A stretch of DNA of 64,000 nucleotides. It comes from Gammaproteobacteria bacterium. Lineage in GTDB: Bacteria > Pseudomonadota > Gammaproteobacteria > Steroidobacterales > Foliamicaceae. Positions 27,033 to 62,466 of this stretch are shown in pieces (position 1 is the first letter of the stretch; every line of letters begins with the position of its first letter). A program made the position numbers and the translations under genes. The stretch covers positions 140,345 to 204,344 of the forward strand of contig WTGP01000008.1 in the NCBI GenBank assembly GCA_011523505.1, written 5' to 3'. The notes under the pieces were generated by a model. It was not told the origin of the DNA, did no database searches, and saw nothing but the letters and a program-made list of their open reading frames with translations.

Positions 27033-28115
27033 ATGATCCCGATCAGCCAGAGACACCGCGCAGGCCTTCAGTTCCTGGGGTCGCTGCAGCATTTTTCCTC
27101 CAGCCATATTCGCGACCTTGCGCGCGACCAGTTCGCCGCCAGTGAGAAGGGGCGGGAGCTTCTCGAGGCCGAGGTCGGGCCGGAGCCGCGCGCCCAGCTG
27201 AAACGTGCGCGCGAGGCCCGCAGGGCGGCGCTGGACTCTCCGGCGTACCAGCACGAGCGGCTGTATCAGCGCTATGTGGCCGAGGAGAATTTCGTGCGCG
27301 CCATTCCCGCGGTGGAGGAAAAGCGCGAAGAATGCCTCAAGGTCCTGAGCCGGGAGCCCGAATACCTGGGCGGCTCGCTGGAACTCGACGACAGCGTACC
27401 GATACCCAAGTACTACGAGGGCGTGGAGTGGCACCTGGAACCGGGAGGCTGGGACGGCTACGACCTGGCCACACCGATGTTCATGGCCGGAGTGGCCCCG
27501 CACGTTTTCTCCCGCGGCGGCTATGCGGCCGTGGAAGTGGACCAGGACATCCGCCGGCAGCGCGTGGACGTGGTGAGCCTGCTGCCGAAAGACCACTACG
27601 ATCGCATCTACGAGCCCGGATGCGGGGGTCTCGGAGCGCTGGCGGCCTGCAGCAAGGTGTATCCCGACGCCGAGCTGACCGGCAGCGACATCTCGACGGC
27701 ACTGCTCCAGGGCGGGCACAAGGCCGCGCGCACCATGGGCATACCGATCCATCTGAAACAGCGCGACGCGCGCGATACGGGCGAGCCCGACGAGTCGTAC
27801 GACGCCGTGCTCATGTACGCGCTGCTGCACGAAATGCCCGTCAGGGTGAGCATCGACACCATCCGCGAGGCGTACCGGATCCTCAAGCCCGGCGGCGACA
27901 TCGTGATCAACGACCCGCCGCCATTCAGCCGCGTGGACGCATTCCAGGCCGCGATCCTGGACTGGGAAAGCGAATATCGCGGGGAACCGTTCTTCAGCGC
28001 GGCCTGTTCGATGGACTGGGCGACGGTGCTCGAAGAAGTCGGCTTCAAGGTGCTCGAAGCGCGCGCCCTGGATTCAAGGGGCTACCCCTGGGTCAACGTA
28101 GCGACCAAGCCTTGA
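27033..28115 (+). CDS. Class I SAM-dependent methyltransferase, copy M1
   Basis: RIYEPGCGG (motif I variant), TGSDIS, YDAVLMYALLHEMP, ILKPGG; long N-terminal extension. Confidence 0.85.
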   Translation: MIPISQRHRAGLQFLGSLQHFSSSHIRDLARDQFAASEKGRELLEAEVGPEPRAQLKRAREARRAALDSPAYQHERLYQRYVAEENFVRAIPAVEEKREECLKVLSREPEYLGGSLELDDSVPIPKYYEGVEWHLEPGGWDGYDLATPMFMAGVAPHVFSRGGYAAVEVDQDIRRQRVDVVSLLPKDHYDRIYEPGCGGLGALAACSKVYPDAELTGSDISTALLQGGHKAARTMGIPIHLKQRDARDTGEPDESYDAVLMYALLHEMPVRVSIDTIREAYRILKPGGDIVINDPPPFSRVDAFQAAILDWESEYRGEPFFSAACSMDWATVLEEVGFKVLEARALDSRGYPWVNVATKP

Positions 28116-28164
28116 GCGCGGCGCTGCACCCCGCGGACGAGAGCGGGAGGCCCTCGATCCCGGC

Positions 28165-28461
28165 ATGACCAAACCGCCGACCCGCCCGCTCACCGGCGAC
28201 GAAAGCCTGGACCGGCTGCTGCGCATGAACACGGAGCTCCTGTCGGAGCTCTGGATCCTGCGCGACCGGGTCATGGTCCTCGAGAAAATCCTTGAGGAGA
28301 AGGGGCTGCTCGATACCGCCGCGATAGACGACTACGCGCCTTCTCCGGAATTCGGCGAGGTCCTGCAGGACGAGCGCGACCGGCTGGTGCGGCGCGTTGC
28401 CGGCGCGCCCTGGACCGAGGAATTCACCTGGCAGTCACTCGTCGAGCGCGGCGGGCGGTAG
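28165..28461 (+). CDS. Small helical methyltransferase-associated protein, copy P1
   Basis: LDRLLRMNTELLSELWILRDRVMVLEKILEEKGLL; homologous to 57236..57526 and 62149..62466. Confidence 0.8.
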   Translation: MTKPPTRPLTGDESLDRLLRMNTELLSELWILRDRVMVLEKILEEKGLLDTAAIDDYAPSPEFGEVLQDERDRLVRRVAGAPWTEEFTWQSLVERGGR

Positions 28462-31400
28462 TTTCCGCCCGACCCAGGCGAAATAGACCGCCGGGATCAC
28501 GAGCAGCGTAAGCGCCGTCGTCGAAACCATCCCGCCCAGCATGGGCAGCGCGATCCGGCGCATCACGTCCGCACCGAGACCGCCGGTCAGGAATATCGGC
28601 ATAAGGCCGACGAGCACCGTTATCACGGTCATCAGTATGGGCCGCAGGCGCAGCGCGGCGCCCACGCTGATGGACAGCATGATTTCCTCCTTGTTTGCGG
28701 GCTTGTCCTCACGCACGTGGTTGTCGAGGTACATCACCATGACCACGGCGGTTTCAGCCGCAACTCCACCGAGCGCGATGAACCCCACCGCGACGGCCAC
28801 GGACAGGTTGTAACCGGCCAGCCATATCGCCCACAGTCCCCCGATCAGGGCGAAGGGCAGCGAAAGCATGATGATGGCGGTCCGGTCCAGCCGTCCGAAG
28901 TGCAGCATCAGCAGCAGAAAGATCAGCGCGATCGCCGACGGTATGGCGATCCTGAGACGTGCCCCGGCCGCTTCGATCTGCTCGTATTGCCCGGACCACT
29001 CGATCGCGTAGCCCGGCGGGAGCCGCACGGCGCTGTCCACGACGCGCCGGGCCTCGGCAACGTAGCCGCCCAGGTCCCGGCCCTCGATATCCACGAAGAC
29101 CCAGCCGGTGAGGCGCGCGTTCTCGGAGCGGATCATGGGCGGCCCCTCCGTAAAGAACACGGCTGCGAGTTCTCCGAGCGGAATATGCGCCCCCGTGGGC
29201 GTCGGCACCAGGATGTTCTCAAGATCGTCCCGGGTCTCCCGAAACGGCCGGTCGTAGCGCAGCATGATGTCGTAACGCTCGCGTCCTTCCACGCTTTCGG
29301 CGAGCTTCATGCCGCCCAGCGCGGTCTGGATGACCGATTGGAATACGCCCATGTCGATATTACGGCGCGCAAGCTCGGAGCGATTCGGCACGATTTCGAG
29401 GTAATTGCCGCCCAGCACCCGGTCGGCAAGCGCCGTGCGGGTGCCGGGGACCCGGCTGACGGCCGATTCCACTTCGCGGGCGATCCGCTCAAGCTCAGCG
29501 AGATCGTCGCCCGTAATCTTTACGCCGACGGGTGTGCGCACACCGGTCGACACCATGTCCATCCGAATATTGATCGGGTAGCCCCAGGAGTTCTTCAGAC
29601 CCGGCATCTGCAGACGCCCGTTCAGGTCTTCGACGAGTTTCTCGGGTGTCATTCCGTCACGCCATTCCGACATTGGCTTGAGCCGAATCCAGGTCTCGAT
29701 CATCGTCAGCGGCGCCGGGTCGGTGGCGGTGTCCGCCCGGCCGGCCTTGCCGAAAACGCTTTCGACCTCCGGCGCCGCCGCGATCACCCGGTTGGTCTGG
29801 CCAAGGACTTCACGGATCTTCGTGGAGGAAACGCCCGGCAGCGTCGTCGGCATGTACAGCAGTTCGCCTTCGTATAGGGGCGGCATGAATTCCGATCCCA
29901 GGCGGGAATACGGAATCAATGCGCTCGCGATCAGGATTACGGCCGCCGTCACCGTCATCCATTTGAACCGCAAGGCAGCGCGCAGACAGGGAGCATAGAG
30001 TCGCGCGGCGAACTCGCTGACCGGATTGCGCACCCGCAGATGCCCCTTGAGGAGCAGCAGGATCAGCACCGGCACCAGCGTGACCGACAGCAAGGCCGCG
30101 AAACCCATTGCGTAGGTCTTGGTGTAGGCCAGCGGGGCGAACAGGCGGTGACTTTCGCCGGTCAACGCGAATACCGGCAGAAAGGAAACGGTGATGATGA
30201 GCAGGGAGAAGAACACGCCGGGGCCGACTTCCCGAACCGCCTGGATGACGGCCCGCCGGCGGGCTTCGCGACCGGCCCCCGCGCCCAGGTCCGACAGCTT
30301 CCGGTTCGCGTTCTCCACCATCACGATCGAGGCATCCACCATCGTGCCGATGGCGATGGCGATACCGCCCAGCGACATGATGTTGGCGGTTATGCCCTGC
30401 GCGGACATGATGACGAATGCTCCGAGCACCCCCAGCGGCAGCGTGATCAGGGCCACGAAAGCGGAGCGAACATGCAGCAGGAAGATGAAGATCACCAGCG
30501 CCACCGCGATCCCTTCTTCGATCAGCTTGCGATTCAGGTAGGAGACGGCCCCTTCGATGAGCGGGGCGCGGTCATAGGTCGTGACGATACGGACGCCTTC
30601 GGGCAGCCCGCGCTCAAGGTCTTCCAGCCTTGCCTTTACCCGGCGGATCACGTCCAGCGCGTTTTCTCCGTCGCGCATAACGACGATCCCGGCGACGGTC
30701 TCGCCCACGCCGTTCAGGTCCACGATGCCGCGCCGCAACGCCGGGCCCTCGACAATCCGGGACACGTCGGCGAGGGTCACGGGCGTGCCGTCTTCCGCGT
30801 ACACGACTACCTGCTCCAGGTCGAGACGGCCCTCGACGTAACCGGACGACCGGATCACGAACTCGCTTTCACCCTGCTCCAGCACGCGTCCGCCTACTTC
30901 GCTGGACGCGGCTCCCACGGCCTCGGAAATGCGCCGGATGGACACGTCGTAGGCGCGCAGCTTGTTGGGGTCGATGAGCACCTGGTACTCGCGCACGAAA
31001 CCGCCCACGGACGCAACCTCCGCAACCCCGTCGACGCCGGCCAGCTCAAAACGCAGGAACCAGTCCTGCAGCGAACGCAGTTGGGCGAGGTCCGTGCGCC
31101 CGCTCTCGTCCACCAGAGCGTATTGATATACCCACCCCACCCCGGTCGCGTCCGGACCGATCTGCGGTGTTGCGCCTTCCGGCAATTCCGCGCTGAGTCG
31201 TGAAAGGGCCTCCGCGACCCGCGAGCGCGCCCAATACAGGTCCACATTGTCTTCGAATATCACGTAGACAAAGCTGGTCCCGAACATCGACGAGCCCCGC
31301 ACGTCCCTGGTCTTGGGCAATCCAAGCAGATTGGCCGACAGCGGATAGGTCACCAGGTCCTCGACGATCTGCGGGGACTGCCCCGGAAACTCGGTGCGGA

Positions 31401-31596
31401 TGATCACCTGCGTGTCGGTCAGGTCCGGGATGGCGTCCAGCGGCGTCCTTTCCAGCGACAGCCAGCCGGCCAGCATGAGTCCGGCAGCCAACGTCAATAC
31501 GATGATCGGATTATCGGCCGACCAGGCGATCAGCCGGGCGATCGCCGAGTCCGACGGGTCCCGGCCGGCCAGCTGCTCTGCGGGGTGTTCGGCCAC
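28435..31596 (-). CDS. cusA: CusA/CzcA-family heavy-metal RND permease (Cu(I)/Ag(I) type)
   Basis: DAIPDLTDTQVII, GPDATGVGW, AIGTMVDASIVMVEN; Met-triad contexts ELLYMPT, PAPLTMIET, RMDMVSTG match E. coli CusA. Confidence 0.95.
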   Translation of the reverse strand: MAEHPAEQLAGRDPSDSAIARLIAWSADNPIIVLTLAAGLMLAGWLSLERTPLDAIPDLTDTQVIIRTEFPGQSPQIVEDLVTYPLSANLLGLPKTRDVRGSSMFGTSFVYVIFEDNVDLYWARSRVAEALSRLSAELPEGATPQIGPDATGVGWVYQYALVDESGRTDLAQLRSLQDWFLRFELAGVDGVAEVASVGGFVREYQVLIDPNKLRAYDVSIRRISEAVGAASSEVGGRVLEQGESEFVIRSSGYVEGRLDLEQVVVYAEDGTPVTLADVSRIVEGPALRRGIVDLNGVGETVAGIVVMRDGENALDVIRRVKARLEDLERGLPEGVRIVTTYDRAPLIEGAVSYLNRKLIEEGIAVALVIFIFLLHVRSAFVALITLPLGVLGAFVIMSAQGITANIMSLGGIAIAIGTMVDASIVMVENANRKLSDLGAGAGREARRRAVIQAVREVGPGVFFSLLIITVSFLPVFALTGESHRLFAPLAYTKTYAMGFAALLSVTLVPVLILLLLKGHLRVRNPVSEFAARLYAPCLRAALRFKWMTVTAAVILIASALIPYSRLGSEFMPPLYEGELLYMPTTLPGVSSTKIREVLGQTNRVIAAAPEVESVFGKAGRADTATDPAPLTMIETWIRLKPMSEWRDGMTPEKLVEDLNGRLQMPGLKNSWGYPINIRMDMVSTGVRTPVGVKITGDDLAELERIAREVESAVSRVPGTRTALADRVLGGNYLEIVPNRSELARRNIDMGVFQSVIQTALGGMKLAESVEGRERYDIMLRYDRPFRETRDDLENILVPTPTGAHIPLGELAAVFFTEGPPMIRSENARLTGWVFVDIEGRDLGGYVAEARRVVDSAVRLPPGYAIEWSGQYEQIEAAGARLRIAIPSAIALIFLLLMLHFGRLDRTAIIMLSLPFALIGGLWAIWLAGYNLSVAVAVGFIALGGVAAETAVVMVMYLDNHVREDKPANKEEIMLSISVGAALRLRPILMTVITVLVGLMPIFLTGGLGADVMRRIALPMLGGMVSTTALTLLVIPAVYFAWVGRKLPPAALDE

Positions 31597-31598
31597 GG

Positions 31599-32861
31599 CT
31601 AATGCCTGTGCATGGAGTGGTCGGTGGCGCCGTCCGGGGACTGCGGATCGAGCTTGGCAAGCCCCTCGCGCAGGTTGGCCTCGGAATCGAGCATGAACTG
31701 CCCGCTCACGACCACCCTCTCACCTGCGTTCAGACCCGCAAGAATTTCCGTGCGGCCGCCCCCCGCAACGCCTGTCTCCACGGTACGGCCGGTAAAACGG
31801 CCGTCGCCCAGAGCGACGATCACATGCTCGCCCCGGCTGTCGCGCAAGAGGGCCTCGGTGGGCACGGAAAGGCGCGCTTCGCCGCTTCCCAGGCTGAATT
31901 GAATGTCCGCGTAGGCGCCGGGGCGCAACGCTCCGGAAGCATTGTCCACTTCGATGCGGACGTCGGCGGTGCGGGTCCTGGGATCGATCGTCGGATAGAC
32001 GTAATCCACCGTTCCCTCTTTCGGCGCCCCGGGCGCGCTCGGGAATTGCAGCGAAACCGTCTGCCCCGCCTCAACCATGGACAGGTCCGCTTCGGGGATG
32101 GAGGCGATGATCCAGACCCTTTCGTAGGACTGAAGACGAAGGATCTGCGTTCCGGGCTTCACGTAATCGCCTTCCCGCACCGAAAGGGCGGCTATCGTCC
32201 CGGAAGCCTCCGCGTAAACGGGCAAGCGCTCGATCACTTCGCGGTTTTCGACGAGCTGGTCGATTGCGGTGGCCTGCATGCCGTCGGAAATCAGACGCTG
32301 GCGGCCCGAATCCATGCGCGACCGGCGGCCCGCCTCCAGTGCAGCCAGGAAGTCCTTCTGCGCGGCAATCAGCTCGGGGCTGTATACCCGGTACAGCAGC
32401 GCGCCGCGCTTGACCTCGTCTCCCTCCGCACGCACCGCGAGGTCTTCGATCCATCCCTCCAGCCGGGAAACGGCAACGGTCTCAAGCCGTTCGTTGCTTT
32501 CGACGTTTCCGTACGCACGAACCGTCCTTTCGAAAAAGGCAGTTTCCACGCGGGCTGTGCGCACACCCATGGTCTGGATCATTTCCGGCGCCACCTGCAC
32601 CTCCGGCGCGGCGCCTCGCGGGAGTTTGGACCCATTCGAAACGGGCACGAGATCCATCCCGCAAATGGGACAAGGGACATCGGGATCCTGCGACACGAAT
32701 TGAGGATGCATCGGGCAGGTATGCTGCTGATCCGCCTGCACAAACGTTGGGGACTGTCCCGCCGGCGAATCGGGGCCGGACCCGTTTCCGCCACAGCCTC
32801 CAACCGCCAATGCGGTCAACAGCAACGCGGCGAAATAACAACGAAAACTGAAAGTGTTCAT
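31599..32861 (-). CDS. cusB: RND periplasmic adaptor with N-terminal heavy-metal-binding domain
   Basis: Lipobox-like VGGC; CPMHP...CPICGMDL; GWIEDL, YSPELIAAQ, VDYVYPTIDPRTRT, SGQFMLDSE; His-rich end DHSMHRH. Confidence 0.9.
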   Translation of the reverse strand: MNTFSFRCYFAALLLTALAVGGCGGNGSGPDSPAGQSPTFVQADQQHTCPMHPQFVSQDPDVPCPICGMDLVPVSNGSKLPRGAAPEVQVAPEMIQTMGVRTARVETAFFERTVRAYGNVESNERLETVAVSRLEGWIEDLAVRAEGDEVKRGALLYRVYSPELIAAQKDFLAALEAGRRSRMDSGRQRLISDGMQATAIDQLVENREVIERLPVYAEASGTIAALSVREGDYVKPGTQILRLQSYERVWIIASIPEADLSMVEAGQTVSLQFPSAPGAPKEGTVDYVYPTIDPRTRTADVRIEVDNASGALRPGAYADIQFSLGSGEARLSVPTEALLRDSRGEHVIVALGDGRFTGRTVETGVAGGGRTEILAGLNAGERVVVSGQFMLDSEANLREGLAKLDPQSPDGATDHSMHRH

Positions 32862-34090
32862 GACGTCACCAGTAAGGAATTGAGTCGCGCCAACGCGCGG
32901 TCGCGGCGGGCCTGCTCGTCTGCCATCCGGCCCAGCAGGATCAGTTCCGCCAGTTCGCCATCGATAACCGGCGAGTAGTCCCCTATTCCCGACTCGTACC
33001 GGGTCCGCTGAGCCTGAACCTGCTCGCGGATGGCGGAGATTTTTGCCAGCAGCGCGGCGAAGGCCGCTTCCGCGGCCCGTCTGGTCGCGTCCAGGACCGC
33101 GTACCGGGCCGCCGCGGTTCTCGCTGCGGCCATGTGGCGATTTCTGGCGCTTTCCCGCTCAGCCCGCGCCGCGCGCAGCGCCGGAGCCTGCGAACGGCTG
33201 CCCCACAAGGGAACACTGAAAGTTACGGCGGCCGATACCCAGTCGTCGCCCGGAAAACGCATGCCCGAGGCGCCCGAGTCACGTTGCTGATAAGTAACCT
33301 GCAGGCCCCAGTCCGGTTTCCAGGCGGCCTGCGCCTCGGACACGCCTGCGTCGGCCACGGTTATGTTCTCCCGCGCCACCCGTACCGCGTGAAAGGCATC
33401 GGGATTTCCCGACCAGGCCTGCGGCTCCAGATCCGGCGGAGGCACGTTTCCGGCGCCGACGACGAGGTCCTGAAGACGCGCATCGACCTCTGCCCTTTCG
33501 CCTTCGAGGTCCGCCAGGGCACGGTCGACCTCCGACCGCTGCAGGTCGATCTCGGCCAGGCGGAACAGCACCGGGCGCCCTGCGGCAATCTCGCCCTGCA
33601 CGATCTGCTCCAGTTCGCCGTACAGGGAATCCTGCTGCCTCAGGTAAGAAACCTGCTCTGCTATACGGCGCCTTTCGACCAGTGCAACGATCAATTCGGC
33701 GCGCATCCGCGCAAACTGCAGAGCTTCCACCGCGTCATTGTGTGCGGCGCGGCGATTCGCGCGCTCCGACCGGGCTGCGCGTTCGGGCCGGTTGGGAATC
33801 TGCTGGCTTATGCCGAGCGCCTTGTTGGTAGGCAGGTAAGTACGGAATGAAGGGTCGAGCAATGGAAAGTTGTTGACGCCTACCGATACCACAGGATCGG
33901 GCCACGCCACGGCGGCAACGGCATCTTCGCGGTAGGCCTGCGTTTGCAGGCGGAGCGCCTGGAGTGCGGGATGGTCCCTGAGACGCGCCTCAAGCTCCTC
34001 GAAGCTTTGCCCGAACAGGGGCGGTGCGCTTAGAGCAAGACCAAGCGAACACGCCAGGAATAAGAATGGTTTTCGGCTGTTTCTGGCCAT
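32858..34090 (-). CDS. TolC-family outer membrane efflux protein (CusC-like)
   Basis: Signal peptide, WPDPVVS and WKPDWGL...FSVPLW repeats, long helices; first large gene of the operon. Confidence 0.85.
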   Translation of the reverse strand: MARNSRKPFLFLACSLGLALSAPPLFGQSFEELEARLRDHPALQALRLQTQAYREDAVAAVAWPDPVVSVGVNNFPLLDPSFRTYLPTNKALGISQQIPNRPERAARSERANRRAAHNDAVEALQFARMRAELIVALVERRRIAEQVSYLRQQDSLYGELEQIVQGEIAAGRPVLFRLAEIDLQRSEVDRALADLEGERAEVDARLQDLVVGAGNVPPPDLEPQAWSGNPDAFHAVRVARENITVADAGVSEAQAAWKPDWGLQVTYQQRDSGASGMRFPGDDWVSAAVTFSVPLWGSRSQAPALRAARAERESARNRHMAAARTAAARYAVLDATRRAAEAAFAALLAKISAIREQVQAQRTRYESGIGDYSPVIDGELAELILLGRMADEQARRDRALARLNSLLVTS

Positions 34091-34169
34091 CTTGATCTCC
34101 CTTTGAGGGAAATGAGCGGGTAGGGGTACGCACCGGGCAATGACCCGGTACGAGCGTTGCGCTCGATGA

Positions 34170-34571
34170 CTAGATCAGTAGGCGCTGCTTGAGTACGACA
34201 GGTGTTTGCGCCTGCCTTGCAACGGCGGCAGGCGGCCCGGCAATTCGTACGCTTTGCGGACGAACCGATGGCACGGAATGGTCCGAAATCGCCGGCGGCA
34301 GTTTGAATCCCGGCTCGTTCTTGAACGCGATCGCCTTGGCTGCTCCGCCGGCCGGCGCCGGTTCGAAGTCGGCGCACTCGGAGCATTCCGGCGCACAGCC
34401 GTGTCCTTCACGAGCCTGCCCGTCGTCCGGACAGTCCCCGCACAGGGGAGCTTCGGTGACCGGCTCCTGCGCCTGGGCCAACAGATCGGCCAGGCAACAG
34501 CAGGCAATGGCCTGCTGCATGCCGAACAGGGCAGCGGCCAGGACCAGCGAAATGCGCGCAGATGCCTTCAT
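34170..34571 (-). CDS. Cys-rich exported small protein at the head of the cus operon (CzcI/DUF2946-like)
   Basis: Hydrophobic N-terminus, ACCC, CGDC, GHGCAPECSEC, Pro-rich tail ending RLLI; TATACT 10 nt upstream of ATG. Confidence 0.6.
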   Translation of the reverse strand: MKASARISLVLAAALFGMQQAIACCCLADLLAQAQEPVTEAPLCGDCPDDGQAREGHGCAPECSECADFEPAPAGGAAKAIAFKNEPGFKLPPAISDHSVPSVRPQSVRIAGPPAAVARQAQTPVVLKQRLLI

Positions 34572-34635
34572 CAGGTTTCCAAGTATACGCTTTCGGCGCT
34601 CTTACTGGTTGGATGCGCAACTCGGCAGGAGGGTT

Positions 34636-35889: not shown

Positions 35890-35928
35890 AAGGGCGACAT
35901 ACGTTGTCGGTAACCTTCGCCGCGCAGC

Positions 35929-51526: not shown

Positions 51527-51540
51527 ATCCGCGGGTTCTC

Positions 51541-55061: not shown

Positions 55062-55081
55062 CCGCCGGGAGGATTCCACCA

Positions 55082-56134
55082 ATGAAACTGAGATTGCTGG
55101 GCTCTAGCAGCCTGCGCGTTTCCGAGCTGTGCCTGGGCGCAATGACCTTCGGCGGGACGGCCCACTTGTACGCCGGGGAAGAAGACTGCCGGGCCGTGTA
55201 CGACGCCTACCTCGCCGCCGGCGGGAATTTCATCGACACGGCCGATATGTACGGAATGGGCGCCAGCGAGAGCATGCTGGGCCGCTTCCTGGGCGAGGAC
55301 CGCAAGCGGATCGTCCTGGCCAGTAAATATTCGATGAATACCGACCCGGACGACCCCAACGCCGGCGGCAACCATCGCGCCAACATGGTCCGCTCGCTGG
55401 AGGGCAGCCTCGAGCGGCTCAAGACCGACTACCTGGACCTCTACTGGGTTCATGCCGCCGACGGACTGACTCCGCCAATGGAGATCATGCGTGCGCTGGA
55501 CGACCAGGTGCGGCTGGGCAAGATCCTGCACATCGGCATCTCCAACGCGCCGGCCTGGCAGGTCGCGGCGATGAATGCGGCGGCGGCGGAGCGCGGCTGG
55601 ACGCAATTCACGGCTTTCCAGCTCCAGTACAACCTGGCCGAACGCACGATCGAGAACGCGTTCTTCCCGCTGGCGAAGTTCCAGAACATGGCGATTACCG
55701 CCTGGAGCCCGCTGCTGTTCGGTGCGCTCACGGGCAAGTACACGGTCGCGAAAGACGGCTCGGTCGAGGGCGAAGGGCGCCTGGGCGGGCCCATGGGGGG
55801 ACGCATGCTGACGCCGCACAACCTGAAGGTGGCCCAGGGCCTGCAGAAAGTGGCGGACCGCCTGGGCGCCGCACCGGCGACCGTCGCGCTGGCCTGGCTG
55901 CTGCACCGCCCGGCGCCGGTCATCCCGATCGTCGGCGCCCGCAACCTCGATCAGATGGATCAGAACCTGGCCTGCGTGGACCTGGAGCTGGACGCCGAGT
56001 CACTGGCCGAACTGGACGCGCTTTCGCCGCCGGCGCCGACCTTCCCGGAATCGCTGCTGGCGATGCCGCCGCTGCGGACCATGGTCCACGGCCCGGCGCT
56101 GGTCGAGCGCCTCGTTCCCTGGAACACGGACTGA
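55082..56134 (+). CDS. Aldo/keto reductase
   Basis: SELCLGAMTFG, FIDTADMYG, LASK, LKTDYLDLYWVH, IGISN, AWSPL, PIVGAR. Confidence 0.93.
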   Translation: MKLRLLGSSSLRVSELCLGAMTFGGTAHLYAGEEDCRAVYDAYLAAGGNFIDTADMYGMGASESMLGRFLGEDRKRIVLASKYSMNTDPDDPNAGGNHRANMVRSLEGSLERLKTDYLDLYWVHAADGLTPPMEIMRALDDQVRLGKILHIGISNAPAWQVAAMNAAAAERGWTQFTAFQLQYNLAERTIENAFFPLAKFQNMAITAWSPLLFGALTGKYTVAKDGSVEGEGRLGGPMGGRMLTPHNLKVAQGLQKVADRLGAAPATVALAWLLHRPAPVIPIVGARNLDQMDQNLACVDLELDAESLAELDALSPPAPTFPESLLAMPPLRTMVHGPALVERLVPWNTD

Positions 56135-56177
56135 TCGCGCGTGTAGCACCGGAGGGGGTTTACACTGCCATGTCATC

Positions 56178-57239
56178 ATGAACGACACCCTGCAACCGAA
56201 ACTCCGCCAGCGCGGGCGCGCTTCCGTCGATTTCCTGGCCCACGTATTTCATGGCACGACCGGAGTGCGCAAGGGCGTTCATGAAGAACTGAAAAACCGA
56301 TTCGGCGACGGAGCGTCCCTGCCGGACGACCTCGACGAGCGCCACGAGGCCGTCACCGGCGTCCTTTCCAGCGAACCGGGCTACCGCGTGCAGCAAACGA
56401 TCGGCGAGTGGCACTCGCGCCAGCACGGCCTGATCGCGATGGACGCGTTCGAGGAACTGAAGCCGGGCGTAACCGAACTGCTCGCGCAGTACGACGAAGG
56501 ACCGTCGCGGCTGATCGCCGATGAAGACTTCAAGGCCCCGGACTATTTCGAAGGCGTGGAAATTCACCGCACCCGCGGCGGATGGGACGGGCATCCCTAC
56601 ATGGGTTTCGTTCATGGCGAAATCGTCCACAGGCTGATCGTGGACGCCACCTATCCGGGCGGTATTTTCACGCAGCGGCGCATGGTGGCAGGGCTGGCGC
56701 CGAAGGACCGCTACCATCGCATACTCGAGATGGGCTGCTCCACCGGCCATTTCACCCGGGCGCTGGCCGAGACCTACCCGGATGCGGAAATCACCGGCGT
56801 GGACGTGTCGATCCGCACGCTTGAGCACGCGCTGCGCACGGGCAACTCCTGCGGCCATGGCTGGCAACTGTATCTGCGCGCCGCCGAGGACACCGGCTTC
56901 GACGACGAGCACTTCGACCTGGTCACCTCGTACATCCTGCTGCACGAAATGCCCGCCGACGCCATCCGGGGCTCCTTTGCCGAGGCTTACCGGGTGCTGA
57001 AGCCCGGCGGCGACCTGCTGATGAGCGACGTCGCGCGCTATGCGCACCTCAACAAGGTCCAGGAATGGCAGGACGATCAACTCGCCCGCTTCGGCGGCGA
57101 GCCCTTCTGGCGCGAGTCCGCCAGCCTGGACCTGGTCGCCGCGCTGGAGGATGCCGGGTTTGCAGAGGTTGACGGCCGGGCCATAGGCAATCAGGGCTAT
57201 CCCTATCCCTACGTAGTAACCGCGCGCAAGCCCGCATGA
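56178..57239 (+). CDS. Class I SAM-dependent methyltransferase, copy M2
   Basis: [36 protein letters not shown]. Confidence 0.88.
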
Positions 57240-57526
57240 ACGGCGACCCCCGTTCGTTCAACAATCCCGACCGCCCGACGCTCACGGCAGACGACATGCC
57301 GGGCGTGGGCCAGGCCGTAATGACGCTCACGCATGAGCTCTACGTCCTGATCGACCGCATCGCCGCGCTGGAAGCGGTGCTCGAGCGGCACGGCCTCGAC
57401 GTAAGCACGGAAATCGAAGCCTTCAAGCCGGATGCGGAACAGCAGGAGCGGCTTAACGAGCGCGGCCGCGCCCTGGTGGCCCGCGTTACCAACGCCCTCG
57501 CCGGAGAACCCGACCCGCTGCCCTGA
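57236..57526 (+). CDS. Small helical methyltransferase-associated protein, copy P2
   Basis: [25 protein letters not shown]; ATGA overlap with M2. Confidence 0.8.
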
Positions 57527-57583
57527 CCGCCATGCTACACTCCTAGGCTGTTCACGGTTTCGATGTTCATGGAGTAGAAGATC

Positions 57584-58192
57584 ATGGCCAAAGACAAGGA
57601 TGGCGCAACGGACTTGCCACCTGCAAAAACCACGCCGGCAACTTATCAGGATGTGCTTGACGCGCCACCGAACATGGTCGCGGAAGTCGTTTACGGCGCC
57701 CTCTACACCCACCCAAGGCCAGCCCCTGCGCATGCCTGGGCCAGTTCGGGGCTGGGTTCCACACTGGGAGAGCCATTCAATTATGGGCGCGGCGGGCCTG
57801 GGGGCTGGTGGATTATCGACGAACCCGAACTTCACCTGGGCGAGGACATCGTAGTCCCCGACCTGGCGGGCTGGCGGCACGAAAGCATGCCGGATTTCCC
57901 CGAAACCGCCTACTTCACACAAGCGCCAAACTGGGTCTGCGAAGTACTCTCTCCGTCCACGCGCTCGCTCGACCGGGGCGCCAAGCAAGCCATTTACGCC
58001 CGCGAAGGCGTAGGACACCTATGGTTCGTCGATCCCGACGCCCGCACCCTCGAGGCTTTCGAGTTGCGCGACAACCGCTGGAGTCTGCTGAAACTACTGG
58101 CCGACGACGCACGGGTTTCGCTTCCGCCTTTCGACGCCATCACATTTTCGCTGAGCGACCTCTGGCCCCCACCGGCGCCGAAATCTGCGTGA
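57584..58192 (+). CDS. Uma2 (DUF820) family PD-(D/E)xK endonuclease-like protein
   Basis: VAEVVYG, PRPAPAH, VVPDLAGW, WVCEVLSPST, HLWFVDP. Confidence 0.9.
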   Translation: MAKDKDGATDLPPAKTTPATYQDVLDAPPNMVAEVVYGALYTHPRPAPAHAWASSGLGSTLGEPFNYGRGGPGGWWIIDEPELHLGEDIVVPDLAGWRHESMPDFPETAYFTQAPNWVCEVLSPSTRSLDRGAKQAIYAREGVGHLWFVDPDARTLEAFELRDNRWSLLKLLADDARVSLPPFDAITFSLSDLWPPPAPKSA

Positions 58193-58255
58193 ATCCAGGC
58201 ATGGTCATCCACACACTCCGCTTGGCGCGGGACCGGCAATCCAGTCGGGCGAAAA

Positions 58256-59422
58256 TCAGAGCGGTTCGGTCGCGGGGTCGTAGTGCGAGAGTCCGAGGGT
58301 CTCCTCGGTGACCACGGGCCTTCGGGCCAGTTCGTCGGGGTCCTGTTGCATCAGGCGGTCGCCGCCCAGCAGGGACTGGCGGTGGATTACCATCACGCGC
58401 TCGCGGCGCGCGTGCTCGTAGCGACACAGCGCCTCGCCGGCCTCTTCGAACTCGATCAGCGAGCGGCAGAGGATCACCGCATCCTCGATGGCCATCGCGG
58501 CGCCCTGACCCAGCCAGGGCAGCATCGGGTGAGCGGCGTCGCCCAGCACGGTAGCGCGGCCCCGCACCCATCGAGGCAAAGGCCGGCGCGAGAAAAGCCC
58601 CCACATGTGGCAGCGCCTGCCGGAAAAAGCGCTAAGCACAACACGCGCGTCCTCGTGAAAGTCGGAAAAGACGCCACGCACCGAAACGATGTCGCCGGTC
58701 TGCGACCAGCCTTCGGCGGTCCAATTGTCGGCCCGGGAGAACGCCACGAAGTTCTGCAATGCCCCGTGGCGTACGGGATAGCGAACGAACATGCGCCCCG
58801 GCGCCACGAACACCATGGAACCGGGGCGTGACTGTTCGGCGCCCAACTCGTCCCGGGTGACCAGGCCCCTCCAGGCCACGAAGCCGGAGAACTCCGGCGC
58901 CGGTTCGGAAAAGACCTCGCGGCGCACGGTGGACTTGAGCCCGTCGGCGCCGATCAGCAAATCGGCGCCTGCCTGCGATCCGTCGGCAAAACCCAGCAGA
59001 TAAACGCCCGCCGGATCGTCCGAAACGGCCGTCAGTTCCTTGTCCAGCACCAGCGCATCGGGCTGCAGCGCGGCCAGCCTTTCGCGCAGAAGATCATGCA
59101 GGTCGGCGCGATGGGCCTGCAGGTACGGCGCGCCCTGTTGCTCGCGCGTATTGTGGCGCCTGAAGTTCACGAGCACCTTGCCGTTGGCGTAGTGGCGCGT
59201 GACCTGGGTCGGCGGCTCGTCGGCCATCGCCTCCAGTCGCTCGCCCACGCCCAGGTAACGAAGCCCCTTGACGGCGTTCGGCGAAAGCGAAACGCCGGCG
59301 CCGATCTCCCTGAGTTCGGGTGCCTGCTCATAGACGCGCAGCCGCTTGCCCGCGCGGGCCAGGCCCAGCGCCAGCGCGAGGCCGCCGATGCCGGCGCCGA
59401 CAATTGCAATCCGGTCGGCCAC
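58256..59422 (-). CDS. FAD-dependent monooxygenase (group A, salicylate hydroxylase-like)
   Basis: IAIVGAGIGGL, HRADL, LIGADGLKS, LGDAAHPMLPWLGQGAAMAIEDA. Confidence 0.92.
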   Translation of the reverse strand: MADRIAIVGAGIGGLALALGLARAGKRLRVYEQAPELREIGAGVSLSPNAVKGLRYLGVGERLEAMADEPPTQVTRHYANGKVLVNFRRHNTREQQGAPYLQAHRADLHDLLRERLAALQPDALVLDKELTAVSDDPAGVYLLGFADGSQAGADLLIGADGLKSTVRREVFSEPAPEFSGFVAWRGLVTRDELGAEQSRPGSMVFVAPGRMFVRYPVRHGALQNFVAFSRADNWTAEGWSQTGDIVSVRGVFSDFHEDARVVLSAFSGRRCHMWGLFSRRPLPRWVRGRATVLGDAAHPMLPWLGQGAAMAIEDAVILCRSLIEFEEAGEALCRYEHARRERVMVIHRQSLLGGDRLMQQDPDELARRPVVTEETLGLSHYDPATEPL

Positions 59423-59428
59423 GAGCTG

Positions 59429-61012
59429 CTAAATGCCGAGGGCGCCGGGGTTGATCAGCCCCGAGGGATCCACCTGCTGCTTGACGGAGCGCAGCAACTC
59501 CAGGGCGCCGGGGTCACGGTCTCTCGCATACGGGTAGGCGCGGCCGATCTGAAGGTGCACGGCGCCATGCCGGTACATGAGCTCGATCAGCTCCATGCGC
59601 ATCCGCTCCACCAGCTCCCGGCCCTCGGGGTTCGCCCGGCCCTCGCTTGCGACGCCTTTCATTTCATCCGGAAGGTAGCGGCGATGGTAGGAAAGCCACT
59701 CGTCGTCCCAGTAAATGACCACCTCCCAGAGGAAGCCGGCCCTGGCGCTGGTGCTGTAGACGACGAATGCCTGGACGCTCTTCTCTTCGCACTCCCGGCG
59801 AATGCCATCCAGATACCGCAGGTACTCTTCATGCAGCCCCTCGGCGCTCGAAAACGGCACTATCGCATGCAGGGGCAACAGCCGGCGACCAGTGGGGCTC
59901 ACGATCATCGGGGCGGGAAACGGGACCGCGCGCGCATACTCGGCCATGGTGTTGGCCACTTCGATGCCCCGGTCGCCGACCGCCCTGCGTATCCGCCGCA
60001 GATTCATGCGCAGTTCCGCCGCGTCCGCCCCTTCGGTGAGGAAGTTCAGCAGGTATTTCGAGGCGTTGAGGAACCGGCGCCCGCCCGTGACCACCCGCAT
60101 TCCCTTGCGCAGGGCCTGCACGGGCCCTGAAGCGGCGCGCATGATGGTGAAGAGGTTTCGTGCATCCTGCTTCAATTCGGCCCGGCCCGCGGCCTGCCGG
60201 ACCAGTTCGGTCTCCGCGCCGAACACCTCGGTGGCGAGTCCGCCGCGCGATACGCGCCGGGTCGCCTCCACGAGCTGGGAAAAATCATCGAACGAGAAAC
60301 TCAGGCCCTCGCCGGCCGCGGGACGCGGCTCCAGCTTGAGGGTCACCGCCGTCTTCACCCCCAGGGCGCCCGCGTCGCCGCAGAAAAGCCCGGTGAGGTC
60401 CGGGCCGTATTCCCGGAAAAAGGAGCTGTGCTCCGGCTGCCCTCCGGAACCGGTCACCAGCACACTGCCGTCCCCCAGCACGACCTCCAGTCCCAATGCG
60501 GCGGAAACCGAAGGCCCGTGCCGCCCCGAACCGAAAGTGACCGCCCCCTGGGACATTGCGCCGCCGACGGTCGATAGCCGGCCGGACATCGGCCCCCAGA
60601 ACACCGATCTCAGCCCGTGTTCGGCGAGTTCCGCATCCACGGCGGACCACGTGCATCCGGCTTCCACCGTGGCGTACAGATCGTGCGCATTGATCTCGCG
60701 CACCGCGTTGAGGCGGCCGGTGTCCAGAACGATGGAGCGCTCGCGATCGGGCAGAAAGGCGTCCGTGTACGACATGCCGCCGCCGCGCACGAACGTCGCC
60801 GTTGCGTGCGCATGGCAGACCCGCAGCACGGCCTGGACTTCCTGCGTGGAACCGGGGCTGACCACGGCCAGCGGCATCTCGACGCTGCGGTATACGTCCT
60901 GCGAAGCGAGTTCCCTCGCTTCTTCCGATGTGACCGCGTGCTCCGGCCCGACTGCCTCGATCAGCGCATCGATCAGCGCCGCGCCGTCAGCGCCCGGGCT
61001 ATCGCGGCGCAT
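59429..61012 (-). CDS. FAD-binding oxidoreductase (VAO/GlcD/D-lactate dehydrogenase superfamily)
   Basis: VVSPGSTQEV, RGGGMSY, TVEAG, STVGG, LEVVLGDG, GPDLTGLFCGDAGALGV, C-terminal DPSGLINPG. Confidence 0.88.
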   Translation of the reverse strand: MRRDSPGADGAALIDALIEAVGPEHAVTSEEARELASQDVYRSVEMPLAVVSPGSTQEVQAVLRVCHAHATATFVRGGGMSYTDAFLPDRERSIVLDTGRLNAVREINAHDLYATVEAGCTWSAVDAELAEHGLRSVFWGPMSGRLSTVGGAMSQGAVTFGSGRHGPSVSAALGLEVVLGDGSVLVTGSGGQPEHSSFFREYGPDLTGLFCGDAGALGVKTAVTLKLEPRPAAGEGLSFSFDDFSQLVEATRRVSRGGLATEVFGAETELVRQAAGRAELKQDARNLFTIMRAASGPVQALRKGMRVVTGGRRFLNASKYLLNFLTEGADAAELRMNLRRIRRAVGDRGIEVANTMAEYARAVPFPAPMIVSPTGRRLLPLHAIVPFSSAEGLHEEYLRYLDGIRRECEEKSVQAFVVYSTSARAGFLWEVVIYWDDEWLSYHRRYLPDEMKGVASEGRANPEGRELVERMRMELIELMYRHGAVHLQIGRAYPYARDRDPGALELLRSVKQQVDPSGLINPGALGI

Positions 61013-61015
61013 TGC

Positions 61016-62080
61016 TCAGCCGGGCTTGGTGGCCAGTGTATTGAGAAGAAACGTGTTGGTGGTTTCCTTGCTGACGTCCTCGAAGCCGACCTTTTCAAGC
61101 AGGGCCGCGAAGTCGAATGCGCCGAATGCCTGGGAATAAGGCTCGCAGTTGTAGCGCGCGTCGAATACCTTCCACATCCAGTTCGGTGTGGGAAACATGG
61201 TCGAGTTGGGCGTATCGATCACCGTGAGCGTACCGCCCGGGCGCAGCACTCGCAGCATTTCGCGGACTATCGGCTCGAAGGTGTGCTCGGGCACCTCGTG
61301 AAAGAGGATGTAGGCAAGCACCGCGTCGAATGTATCGTCCGCATGTTGCATGTTCTCCGCCAGGGCCTGCTGAAAATGCACGTCCACGCCCATGTCGCTT
61401 GCGCGCATGTGCGCATAGCGCAACATGGGCAGCGCCACGTCCAGTCCCCAGACCTCCGCCTGCGGATGCCGCTCCTTCAGCACCGTAGTGCATTGCCCGA
61501 TCGAGCAGCCGAGGTCCAGGATTTTCCGTACCTGCCCGTCCGCCGGCAGCCGCATGTCGTCCACACAGGCTTCGTGGATTTCATCCTTGTCATTGTCGCC
61601 CTGGTAGAAAACCCGGGTGCCGTGATAGAAGACAAAGCCCGCCAGGTTGTCGCCGCAATAGCCGCCGGGCTGCAGGTGGATGTCCTCGCAGGCCGATTCC
61701 GGCACATGAAAGTCCGGATCGTAGTGCAGGCGCCCGGGGTTGCGTTCTTCGGCTTCCGTCAACTGGCCTTCCCAGAACTCGCGATCCGCCGCGAAAGAGT
61801 CCTGCAGCTTCTGCCAGGCAAGCTGCTGCTGGCTGCGCATCACGCGCTTCCAGCCGGCAACCGCCGGGCTTCGATCGATTTCCGGCGCAAGCTGTGCGTA
61901 CTGGTCCGCGTCGATGACGGCGGGCATGCCGGCTTGCGCGGCAATGCCGCCCACCTCGCCGGCGATTCCTGGGAACCAGGAGCGTATGGCGAAGTTGCGG
62001 ACCTCGGTCATGTACTCCATGTGGCTGGCGTCCTCCCTTCTCGGGGGATGGGGGTGTTTGCCGGGATTTCTTTGTTCCAT
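61016..62080 (-). CDS. Class I SAM-dependent methyltransferase, copy M3
   Basis: KILDLGCSIG, WGLDVA, FDAVLAYILFHEVP, VLRPGG. Confidence 0.88.
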   Translation of the reverse strand: MEQRNPGKHPHPPRREDASHMEYMTEVRNFAIRSWFPGIAGEVGGIAAQAGMPAVIDADQYAQLAPEIDRSPAVAGWKRVMRSQQQLAWQKLQDSFAADREFWEGQLTEAEERNPGRLHYDPDFHVPESACEDIHLQPGGYCGDNLAGFVFYHGTRVFYQGDNDKDEIHEACVDDMRLPADGQVRKILDLGCSIGQCTTVLKERHPQAEVWGLDVALPMLRYAHMRASDMGVDVHFQQALAENMQHADDTFDAVLAYILFHEVPEHTFEPIVREMLRVLRPGGTLTVIDTPNSTMFPTPNWMWKVFDARYNCEPYSQAFGAFDFAALLEKVGFEDVSKETTNTFLLNTLATKPG

Positions 62081-62148
62081 ATCTGCTTTCCTGTTTCAGG
62101 GGCGCCGATCGCACTCAAAGATTAACGCACGTCGGCCGGCGAACGGCG

Positions 62149-62466
62149 CTAGCCGTCGGCGCGCATGGTGCGGAGGGGATCGAGCAGGCGAGTCACCAGG
62201 GCGGTCAGCTCCTCCTGCCGGCCCTGCGCGTCGGACTCGGAATGGGATTCGATTTCCTCGGGCGTAAGCAGGCCCTTGGAATGCAGCAGCGACTCCAGCG
62301 CCCGGCGCCGGTCGCGCTCGATCCAGAGTTCGCCGCCCAGGACGATGACCGCTTCCAGCAGGCGGTCCATCACCGGATGAGGAAGAAAGTGCGGCTCCTC
62401 GCCGGGACCCGGCAGGCCGGCGCGCTCCACCTGCGCCCGGGACAGTTCGTCATGCTTCGTGTTCAT
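62149..62466 (-). CDS. Small helical methyltransferase-associated protein, copy P3
   Basis: ATG 62466; VMDRLLEAVIVLGGELWIERDRRRALESLLHSKGLL. Confidence 0.8.
   Translation of the reverse strand: MNTKHDELSRAQVERAGLPGPGEEPHFLPHPVMDRLLEAVIVLGGELWIERDRRRALESLLHSKGLLTPEEIESHSESDAQGRQEELTALVTRLLDPLRTMRADG

What the first reader, a model, noticed from the sequence alone, without database searches (positions are those of the whole stretch)
27033..62466. Thrice-repeated two-gene module: long SAM methyltransferase plus a conserved ~100 aa helical partner
Seen: three class I methyltransferases (M1 27033..28115, M2 56178..57239, M3 61016..62080; 353-360 aa) share, beyond the SAM fold, a long N-terminal extension, a motif before the fold (WHLEPGGWDG / [10 protein letters not shown] / IHLQPGGYCG), the (L/F)HE(M/V)P motif and a late EP(F/Y). 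Each is next to a co-oriented small gene (P1 28165..28461, P2 57236..57526, P3 62149..62466). The small proteins align on EL(W/Y)xxxDRxxxLExxLxx(K/H)GL...I(D/E)...LVxR. M2-P2 is translationally coupled (ATGA); the order is M-P twice and P-M once, which argues for conserved functional linkage rather than a recent block duplication. Established: some methyltransferases need small activator subunits (Trm112 paradigm). Inference: P is a dedicated subunit, chaperone or substrate-presenting partner of an uncharacterised methyltransferase family. The ALESLLxxKGL segment also recalls the N-terminal helix of nitrile hydratase alpha subunits, possibly by coincidence. I recognise no named family for P.
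Basis: partly seen in the sequence, partly recalled or inferred. Interest (0 to 1): 0.82.

Follow-up and report, generated by a model that had tools for sequence, protein, structure and literature searches.

The report
Methyltransferase with a dedicated small partner
A distinct family of SAM-dependent methyltransferases is almost always encoded next to a ~100-residue acidic helical protein that no database describes; this genome holds 15 such pairs, so the small protein is very probably a dedicated partner of the enzyme, although what the pair methylates is unknown.

Summary
The three M genes and three P genes lie where stated. The motifs are correct, and M2-P2 overlap by ATGA.

The window's 3.1-Mb genome holds 15 M paralogues and 15 P paralogues:
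- 13 are co-oriented neighbours (7 M-P, 6 P-M).
- 1 pair is divergent and 1 lies 5 kb apart.
- M and P distances co-vary (Mantel r=0.56, p=1.5e-4).

P belongs to a large family, about 1,750 clusters at 50% identity. It has no Pfam, NCBIfam or PADLOC model, and its members are small and acidic.

Linkage outside this genome is strong from the P side:
- In 68 evaluable loci of other species (alpha- and gammaproteobacteria, one Rhodococcus), an M gene lies within 1 kb upstream of P in 67.
- From the M side, 59 of 75 evaluable genes have an adjacent P.

M is a confident class I methyltransferase with intact SAM motifs, an N-terminal four-helix domain and an invariant His loop. One M clade, not the window's copies, carries conserved Tat export signals.

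Recurrent neighbours are TonB receptors, GPH/MFS_2 transporters and oxidoreductases.

Best reading: P physically partners its cognate M. This is not shown: AlphaFold on a read-through fusion was inconclusive, and inter-protein covariation is only suggestive. The substrate is unknown.

The parts
27033..28115 (+). M1: class I SAM-dependent methyltransferase of the M family (360 aa)
   Evidence: ORF. Pfam Methyltransf_25/11 above the gathering score, residues 190-295. Scores 608 bits on the family HMM. Orthologues 45-97% identical in 66 loci of other species.
28165..28461 (+). P1: 98-aa acidic helical partner protein (P family)
   Evidence: ORF. No Pfam or NCBIfam family. 73 homologues, all 'hypothetical'. 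Predicted helix-loop-helix in the model of its 97%-identical orthologue. GGGAGG lies 16 nt upstream of the ATG.
56178..57239 (+). M2: M-family methyltransferase (353 aa)
   Evidence: AF2 model has pLDDT 94 and pTM 0.93, with an N-terminal four-helix domain (11-104), a loop carrying invariant H130, and a Rossmann methyltransferase core. More than 1,000 homologues.
57236..57526 (+). P2: 96-aa P-family protein, translationally coupled to M2 (ATGA overlap)
   Evidence: The same M-P overlap arrangement occurs in the Novosphingobium locus L001.
61016..62080 (-). M3: M-family methyltransferase (354 aa)
62149..62466 (-). P3: 105-aa P-family protein, upstream of M3 (P-M order)
   Evidence: GGAGG lies 6 nt before the ATG at 62466; the longer ORF to 62613 overlaps the PhyH gene.
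55082..56134 (+). Aldo/keto reductase directly upstream of M2 (43-nt gap), probably the same operon
   Evidence: Pfam Aldo_ket_red, 241 bits.
62504..63433 (-). PhyH-type 2OG dioxygenase directly upstream of P3
   Evidence: Pfam PhyH, 71 bits.
59429..61012 (-). FAD_binding_4 (GlcD/VAO-like) oxidase directly downstream of M3 (3-nt gap)
   Evidence: Pfam FAD_binding_4. Homologues recur beside M-P pairs in 3 metagenome loci (cluster 7).
58256..59422 (-). FAD-dependent aromatic-ring-type monooxygenase, last gene of the M3 operon
   Evidence: Pfam FAD_binding_3. NCBIfam 3-hydroxybenzoate 6-monooxygenase-like, below the cut-off.

Best explanation
M is a distinct subfamily of class I SAM-dependent small-molecule methyltransferases. 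Family-specific features are an N-terminal four-helix domain, an invariant His in a vH.QPGGY loop, and the LHE(M/V)P and GEP(F/Y) motifs around the substrate pocket. P is a dedicated, non-catalytic, acidic helical-hairpin protein made together with its cognate M, often by translational coupling. It most likely binds M 1:1, with P helix 1 (the ELWxxRDRxxxLE segment) packing near the substrate-pocket cap. P would then be needed for M's activity, specificity or stability. Each M:P pair has diverged as a unit, and each sits in a different uptake or oxidation gene island (TonB receptor, GPH/MFS_2 transporter, reductases, oxidases, hydrolases). The 15 pairs of this genome therefore probably methylate 15 different imported or intermediate compounds. 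Shown here: the gene linkage, the co-divergence, the methyltransferase fold and the novelty of P. Inferred: physical binding, stoichiometry, where P docks, and the chemistry.
For: There are 15 M and 15 P paralogues in one 3.1-Mb genome; 13 are co-oriented neighbours with gaps from -121 to +69 nt, and 5 overlap by 4 nt. Both gene orders occur (7 M-P, 6 P-M), so the linkage is kept through rearrangement. M and P paralogue distance matrices correlate (Mantel r=0.56, permutation p=1.5e-4). From the P side, an M gene lies within 1 kb upstream in 67 of 68 evaluable loci of other species, spanning Gamma- and Alphaproteobacteria, a Marinimicrobia-labelled MAG and Rhodococcus. From the M side, 59 of 75 evaluable genes have an adjacent P. 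P evolves about as slowly as M: identities to the window pair fall in parallel, for example 62-70% for P and 62-66% for M in Rhodospirillaceae. P is acidic (median pI 5.0), which argues against a DNA-binding regulator. P is unrelated to any part of M (hhalign probability 0.2%). M keeps all SAM motifs and models confidently as a methyltransferase. In 136 M:P pairs, mutual information with APC correction puts the best inter-protein column pair at rank 42 of 81,576 long-range pairs. The P columns involved lie in helix 1. The M columns cluster near LHE(M/V)P, residues 295-298 and 312-321.
Against: No direct evidence of binding exists. AlphaFold2 on a natural read-through M-stop-P fusion with a paired alignment gave only pTM 0.73 and pLDDT 60-82 for P, so no confident docking. 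No coordinates or PAE were available to inspect. No natural M-P fusion protein was seen among the best 150 of 1,752 P clusters or among 240 M homologues. About one M gene in five has no P within 3 kb, so P is not indispensable to every member. One P sometimes precedes two tandem M genes (L090, L118, L148, L157). The covariation analysis has Neff of only about 86 and is confounded by shared phylogeny. No member of either family has been studied experimentally, as far as the libraries searched show.
Confidence: 0.5

Rival explanations
1. P is a transient, dedicated maturation or export chaperone. It would resemble the redox-enzyme maturation proteins NarJ, TorD and NapD. It binds newly made M in the cytoplasm, holds it until it is folded or loaded with its ligand, and then leaves. 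In the Tat-bearing clade it would proofread M before export.
For: A whole clade of M carries twin-arginine signals: 117 of 120 homologues of own-genome M_5, against 0 of 120 M2-type homologues. Its P partners have no signal peptide and are always encoded just upstream. The DMSO-reductase family gives a precedent, from established knowledge: both exported enzymes (TorA, DmsA) and a cytoplasmic one (NarG) each have a dedicated small chaperone encoded in the operon. The weak AF2 docking fits a transient or peptide-directed interaction.
Against: P matches none of the chaperone families. Twelve of the 15 M paralogues here, and all three in the window, have no Tat signal yet keep P. A SAM-binding Rossmann domain is not known to need cofactor insertion. 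P is as conserved as the enzyme and co-varies with pocket-lining positions, which fits a stable subunit better.
Confidence: 0.2
2. P is the substrate, or a scaffold or carrier, of M: a small protein or RiPP-like precursor that its cognate methyltransferase methylates, for example on the invariant Arg or Glu of helix 1.
For: Strict 1:1 pairing and co-divergence would also be expected for an enzyme and its dedicated protein substrate. P has two invariant charged residues, R35 and E40 in P1 numbering. A lanthipeptide C-terminal methyltransferase (LahSB, 6uak) is among the sequence-level PDB hits of M.
Against: There is no hypervariable core, no leader-cleavage motif, and no protease or RiPP maturase nearby. 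Within orthologues the whole of P, tail included, is conserved (A3). The neighbours are uptake and oxidation enzymes for small molecules. The LahSB hit covers only the generic methyltransferase core. Export of one M clade by Tat, away from a signal-less P, does not fit well.
Confidence: 0.08
3. P is a regulatory binding protein, an inhibitor or switch of M activity, or M-P is a toxin-antitoxin-like or defence pair.
For: The features recall type II TA loci: a small acidic protein next to a larger enzyme, variable gene order, translational coupling, many paralogues per genome, and a Uma2 nuclease gene next to P2.
Against: There is no PADLOC hit for P, and only a generic methyltransferase-core hit for M. 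The orthologous M1-P1 locus keeps its place and its GPH-transporter neighbour across bacterial classes, unlike mobile TA loci. Paralogues are old (25-40% identity) and embedded in metabolic operons with 3-68-nt gaps. No DNA-binding domain is present, and P is acidic.
Confidence: 0.1

Closest known systems
Trm112 with its methyltransferases (Trm9, Trm11, Mtq2, Bud23; archaeal Hvo_0019, PDB 6f5z)
   Same: A small non-catalytic protein that class I methyltransferases need as an activating or stabilising subunit. The 6f5z methyltransferase chain is among the structural neighbours of M.
   Different: Trm112 is one zinc-knuckle, beta-strand protein shared by several RNA or protein methyltransferases. 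P is all-helical and acidic, has no Trm112 Pfam match, and comes as one cognate copy per methyltransferase, encoded next to it.
Redox-enzyme maturation proteins and Tat 'hitchhiker' pairs (NarJ/NarG, TorD/TorA, NapD/NapA; HybO/HybC)
   Same: A small signal-less protein encoded beside a partner that carries a twin-arginine signal in part of the family and none in the rest. Binding in the cytoplasm before export is plausible.
   Different: Those partners are molybdo- or metallo-enzymes that need cofactor insertion. P matches none of those families. Most M proteins, including the three in the window, are cytoplasmic.
Small-molecule class I methyltransferases of the Methyltransf_11/25 type with N-terminal helical domains (DsyB 7wdq, Rv2258c 5f8e, SgvM 8ftv; PmtA 8ys9, phosphoethanolamine N-methyltransferases)
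   Same: Rossmann methyltransferase core, SAM motifs I, post-I and III, and the LH(H/E) segment after strand 4.
   Different: Sequence identity is at most 14-23%, and TM-score normalised to M is at most 0.51 over the whole chain. None of the named families' NCBIfam cut-offs is approached. The vH.QPGGY loop and the P partner are specific to M.
UbiK/UbiJ accessory factors of the ubiquinone methyltransferase metabolon
   Same: A helical accessory protein of about 95 aa that works with class I methyltransferases (UbiE, UbiG) without catalysing anything (established knowledge).
   Different: No sequence match to the UbiK (BMFP) family. UbiK is single-copy and not encoded next to the methyltransferases.
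Nitrile hydratase alpha subunit, N-terminal helix
   Same: The short motif R-V-x-x-L-E-x-(I/L)-L-x-E-x-G-(L/I)...I-D aligns over 25 residues. In NHase this helix is a subunit-interface arm.
   Different: It scores about 10 bits per stretch, and 13 bits against a family cut-off of 250. P has no metal-binding CxLC(S/T)C motif. A phycobilisome linker scores equally well. It is best treated as a convergent helix motif.

Membership tests
Class I SAM-dependent methyltransferase (Pfam Methyltransf_25 / Methyltransf_11) | Pfam domain above the gathering score | tested here: met
   M1, M2 and M3 score 54, 73 and 78 bits against a cut-off of 27 for PF13649.
Class I SAM-dependent methyltransferase (Pfam Methyltransf_25 / Methyltransf_11) | SAM-binding motifs: (D/E)xGxGxG-like motif I, an acidic residue at the end of strand 2, and the FDxV...LH segment | tested here: met
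   Motif I is kept in all 15 paralogues; the middle Gly is Ser or Thr in some. D209, D247, H256, E269, R272 and G277-G278 are invariant or nearly so (M2 numbering).
Class I SAM-dependent methyltransferase (Pfam Methyltransf_25 / Methyltransf_11) | Rossmann-like alpha/beta fold | tested here: met
   AF2 pLDDT 94. More than 1,300 Foldseek PDB matches, all methyltransferases.
Class I SAM-dependent methyltransferase (Pfam Methyltransf_25 / Methyltransf_11) | Methyl transfer from SAM to a substrate | not testable with these tools
   This needs an enzyme assay. The Tat-exported clade makes it worth checking.
Named methyltransferase equivalogs (UbiE/MenG, BioC, RquA, CpaM, ArsM, Tam, PmtA) | NCBIfam score above the curated cut-off | tested here: not met
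   Best scores are 43-59 bits against cut-offs of 155-575.
Trm112-type methyltransferase activator | Trm112 domain or zinc-knuckle fold | tested here: not met
   No Pfam hit for any of 23 P members, even at E<=5. P is predicted all-helical.
Nitrile hydratase alpha subunit | TIGR01323 above its cut-off, and the metal-binding Cys cluster | tested here: not met
   13 bits against 250, residues 34-59 only. P1 has no Cys.
Tat-exported protein | N-terminal twin-arginine motif followed by a hydrophobic stretch, conserved among homologues | tested here: not met
   Absent from M1, M2 and M3 and from 120 of 120 M2-type homologues. Present in own-genome M_5, M_6 and M_8 and in 117 of 120 of their homologues.
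Type II toxin-antitoxin or defence system | Match to known toxin, antitoxin or defence models, and mobile, patchy context | tested here: not met
   PADLOC gives only a generic methyltransferase-core hit and nothing for P. The locus is syntenic across classes.
RiPP precursor (e.g. NHLP-type leader) | Conserved leader with a hypervariable core, and a maturation protease or transporter nearby | tested here: not met
   Orthologues are conserved over their whole length (A3). No protease or maturase is among the recurrent neighbours.
Redox-enzyme maturation proteins (TorD/DmsD/NarJ, NapD) | Pfam family match | tested here: not met
   No hit. A functional analogy is not excluded.

The most novel reading that the evidence does not exclude
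The M:P pair is a new kind of two-protein enzyme. In one large clade it is exported folded through the Tat pathway, with P riding along as a hitchhiker or loading M beforehand. It would then work in the periplasm, where SAM is not known to occur. That would mean either single-turnover or cofactor-like use of pre-bound SAM, or a periplasmic source of SAM. P would be the component that makes this possible. The cytoplasmic pairs in this window would be the ancestral form of the same machine.
Probability: 0.15. Interest if true: 0.88.

Novelty: new variant of a known kind. Interest (0 to 1): 0.7.

Why it matters
Methyltransferases that need a non-catalytic partner are known mainly from RNA and protein modification, with Trm112 as the example. 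Here a large protein family with no database model appears to play that role for small-molecule methyltransferases of marine, freshwater and soil proteobacteria. The family has about 1,750 clusters at 50% identity.

It is expanded to 15 cognate pairs in a 3.1-Mb genome whose close relatives are uncultured MAGs. If P is required, expressing these enzymes alone will fail or mislead. Annotation pipelines that call P 'hypothetical' also miss half of the functional unit.

The pairs sit in uptake and oxidation islands, so they mark unexplored steps in the turnover of dissolved organic compounds. The Tat-bearing clade raises a sharper question that can now be tested directly: what does a SAM-fold enzyme do outside the cytoplasm?

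Tried and rejected
- **Family searches for P.** Pfam, NCBIfam and PADLOC gave nothing consistent. There was one sub-threshold DUF2018 hit for P2 and scattered coiled-coil noise.
- **P profile against PDB sequences.** Only the nitrile-hydratase alpha N-terminal helix and a phycobilisome linker appeared, at about 10 bits. I rejected both as homology.
- **P as a split-off piece of M.** hhalign probability is 0.2%, so this is rejected.
- **Natural M-P fusions.** None was found among the top 150 P clusters or about 240 M homologues. P0353 (470 aa) is only a read-through tail.
- **First fusion alignment (P7-M7 read-through, A6).** MAFFT laid the M N-termini over P, so I discarded it. I replaced it with 18 natural in-frame M-stop-P read-throughs plus unpaired rows (A7).
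- **AF2 on the read-through fusion.** The result was only moderately confident, and no coordinates were available. Foldseek on that model added nothing.
- **MddH (marine S-methyltransferase).** It is 24 kDa and a different family.
- **Literature searches.** Searches for periplasmic or Tat methyltransferases, for 'Foliamicus', and for methyltransferase small subunits gave nothing relevant.
- **The search for related loci with the broad P alignment A4.** The P-side adjacency statistic therefore covers P1-type orthologues only.
Full report
**1. The observation**

The six ORFs are present as described:
- M1 27033-28115 (+), P1 28165-28461 (+)
- M2 56178-57239 (+), P2 57236-57526 (+)
- M3 61016-62080 (-), P3 62149-62466 (-)

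M2 and P2 overlap by ATGA. P3 starts at 62466 behind a GGAGG. The longer ORF call to 62613 runs into the PhyH gene upstream.

The M proteins are 25-34% identical to one another and the P proteins 31-40% (A1 and A2). Gene order is M-P, M-P and P-M.

**2. The module is repeated 15 times in this genome**

A profile of P1-P3 finds 15 P-family frames in the window's genome (3.12 Mb, 53 contigs). With the genome in the Python box, an HMM of M1-M3 finds 15 M-family ORFs at 143-608 bits. The next methyltransferase scores 46 bits. An HMM of P1-P3 again finds 15 P ORFs.

Pairing them by position gives the following:
- 13 are co-oriented neighbours with gaps of -121 to +69 nt: 7 in M-P order and 6 in P-M order.
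- 5 of these have the 4-nt overlap typical of translational coupling.
- 1 pair is divergent and 1 pair lies 5.2 kb apart.

The M-M and P-P distance matrices correlate (Mantel r=0.56, p=1.5e-4 by 20,000 permutations). The pairs have therefore duplicated and diverged as units.

**3. What M is**

Only generic class I methyltransferase models match, over residues 180-295. No NCBIfam equivalog comes near its cut-off.

AlphaFold2 on M2 with 31 sequences gives pLDDT 94 and pTM 0.93. The model has three parts:
- four N-terminal helices (residues 11-104);
- an irregular segment (105-141) carrying the invariant His of the vH.QPGGY motif;
- a Rossmann methyltransferase core.

Foldseek against the PDB returns only methyltransferases. 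The best full-length TM-score is 0.51 (DsyB), followed by Rv2258c, phosphoethanolamine and phosphatidylethanolamine N-methyltransferases, and SgvM.

In all 15 paralogues the SAM motifs are kept. Also kept are P121, H130, D247, H256-E257, E269 and R272 (M2 numbering). M is therefore a real, distinct subfamily of small-molecule-type SAM methyltransferases. Its substrate is unknown.

**4. What P is**

No Pfam, NCBIfam or PADLOC model matches. Scanning 23 members one by one gives no recurrent family.

A P profile against 1.84 billion representative proteins finds 1,752 clusters at E<=1e-3 and 1,118 at E<=1e-10. All of the best 150 are 82-231 aa, and none is fused to a methyltransferase. The names given by sources are all 'hypothetical protein'.

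P is acidic, with a median pI of 5.0, and 82% of members lie below pI 6. It shows no profile similarity to any part of M.

The consensus has three parts:
- a variable N-terminus, often (Y/F)FxDP;
- a long helix, L..EL(W)..RDR...LE.LL...G;
- a loop ending in P, followed by a second helix.

Against PDB sequences, the only hits are the N-terminal helix of nitrile hydratase alpha and a phycobilisome linker, at about 10 bits per stretch. I treat these as a shared helix motif and not as homology.

**5. Linkage outside this genome**

*From the P side.* A scan of one genome per species with the P1-type alignment returned 71 loci. They come from uncultured Gammaproteobacteria including Ca. Foliamicus, Rhodospirillaceae, Steroidobacteraceae, Nevskiaceae, Woeseiaceae, a Marinimicrobia-labelled MAG and a Rhodococcus isolate.
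- An M-family gene lies directly upstream and co-oriented in 66 loci.
- Three of the others are cut by the contig end.
- One (L032) has M 0.77 kb upstream.
- One (L031) has no M within 4 kb.

*From the M side.* 80 metagenome loci held 92 M-family genes.
- 59 have an adjacent P.
- 17 are too close to a contig end to tell.
- 16 have none within the fetched flank, up to 3 kb. Three or four of these are the second M of a P-M-M tandem.

Single look-ups show M-P in Novosphingobium (two pairs flanking two MFS transporters) and in Aliiglaciecola.

So P is essentially never found without M, while roughly one M in five lacks a nearby P. This asymmetry is what one expects of an accessory to M.

**6. Context**

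Next to the P1-type pair, a GPH/MFS_2 symporter is adjacent in 34 of 71 loci. TonB-dependent receptors occur in 15 loci, with alpha/beta hydrolases also recurring.

Across the broader M family, the recurrent neighbours are TonB receptors, SDRs, aldehyde dehydrogenases, MFS_2 transporters and FAD_binding_4 oxidases.

In the window the neighbours are as follows:
- M2-P2 follow an aldo/keto reductase.
- P3-M3 sit in an operon: PhyH dioxygenase, P3, M3, GlcD/VAO-like FAD oxidase, aromatic-type FAD monooxygenase.
- M1-P1 lie between a choice-of-anchor-B protein and a convergent RND pump.

The other 12 pairs of the genome sit beside these genes:
- a double nitrilase-like protein and an aldehyde dehydrogenase;
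- a creatinase-like M24 hydrolase and an amino-acid permease;
- alanine dehydrogenase;
- a family III CoA-transferase;
- an acyl-CoA synthetase;
- a dienelactone hydrolase;
- TonB receptors.

The pairs thus look like a reusable methylation step in many different uptake and oxidation islands.

**7. A Tat-exported clade**

Three own-genome M paralogues (M_5, M_6, M_8; none in the window) begin with MNRR(T/S)(I/V)(L/M)G followed by a hydrophobic stretch and AxA.

Of 120 database homologues of M_5 (49-97% identical), 117 have RRxhh in the first 25 residues. None of 120 M2-type homologues does. In two other genomes the Tat-type M is again preceded by a signal-less P. In one of these it is flanked by ApbE, an FMN_bind protein and a TonB receptor.

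My count confirms that independently. Export of a SAM-fold enzyme is unexplained, and it bears on what P does: hitchhiker or pre-export chaperone.

**8. Tests of physical coupling**

In 18 of the fetched loci, M and P are by chance in one frame, separated by a single stop. Reading the stop as Gly gave natural paired rows. This is a modelling device only; no claim of read-through is made.

I combined these with unpaired M and P rows into a clean block alignment (A7). AlphaFold2 was then run on the L018 pair, which is 94% and 97% identical to M1 and P1. The results were as follows:
- mean pLDDT 81.5 and pTM 0.73;
- P as helix 375-407, a short helix 413-418, helix 423-441 and tail helices;
- pLDDT of 60-82 for P.

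This neither supports nor excludes a defined interface, and no coordinates or PAE could be read.

Mutual information with APC correction was computed on 136 M:P pairs (Neff about 86). It behaves sensibly inside M: 87 of the top 200 pairs are within four residues, against 4.6 expected. It places the best inter-protein pair at rank 42 of 81,576 long-range pairs.
- The P positions involved lie in helix 1 (P1 N22, L26, S27, W30, L32, D34).
- The M positions cluster near LHE(M/V)P (Y262, P269), residues 295-298, and residues 312-321 around GEPF.

This is suggestive of P lying against the substrate-pocket cap, but shared phylogeny is not excluded.

**9. Verdict**

The finding is real, stronger than stated, and not explained by any described family. 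The functional linkage of P to M is established by comparative genomics.

That P is a bound subunit is the most likely mechanism (about 0.5). A transient maturation or export chaperone comes next (0.2). A regulatory, inhibitor or TA-like role (0.1) and a substrate role (0.08) are less likely.

Compared with known systems, it works like Trm112-type activation but is not a member of that family or any other. I class it as a new variant of a known kind.

Per-genome counts in relatives and transcript evidence are therefore missing.

Noticed in passing
own genome outside the window: C19:145694-146872(-), C45:74801-75976(+), C23:124311-125558(+) (the window is C23:140345-204344): Three M paralogues carry N-terminal twin-arginine (Tat) signals. 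117 of 120 database homologues of this clade do too. A SAM-fold methyltransferase exported to the periplasm is unexplained.
   Followed up: partly
L088:3492-9330: In a Pseudomonadales MAG the Tat-type P-M pair is flanked by an ApbE flavin transferase, an FMN_bind protein and a TonB-dependent receptor. This hints at a periplasmic flavoprotein partner for the exported clade.
   Followed up: no
L090:4619-7676; also L118, L148, L157: One P gene precedes two tandem M paralogues (P-M-M), so one P may serve two closely related methyltransferases.
   Followed up: partly
proteins P0227, P0239, P0337, P0219: Some P-family members carry long Lys/Ala/Pro-rich histone-H1-like tails at the N- or C-terminus. 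One has an N-terminal domain with a weak SnoaL_2 match (17 bits, below the cut-off).
   Followed up: partly
window 57584-58192 (+): A Uma2-family putative endonuclease gene lies directly after P2, between the M2-P2 module and the M3 operon.
   Followed up: no
window 25671-26960 (+): The gene upstream of M1 is a choice-of-anchor B family protein (TIGR04312, 485 bits) with a lipoprotein-like N-terminus and a Pro-rich linker. Pfam has no match for it.
   Followed up: no
own genome C13:469175-470263(-) and C13:475518-475796(+): The only separated pair: M_11 lies next to a TonB receptor. P_11 lies 5.2 kb away, between a creatinase-like M24 hydrolase and an amino-acid permease.
   Followed up: no
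L031:4001-4279: The single P1-type locus without any M gene within 4 kb. The P frame there lacks the first five residues, which may be decay after loss of M.
   Followed up: partly
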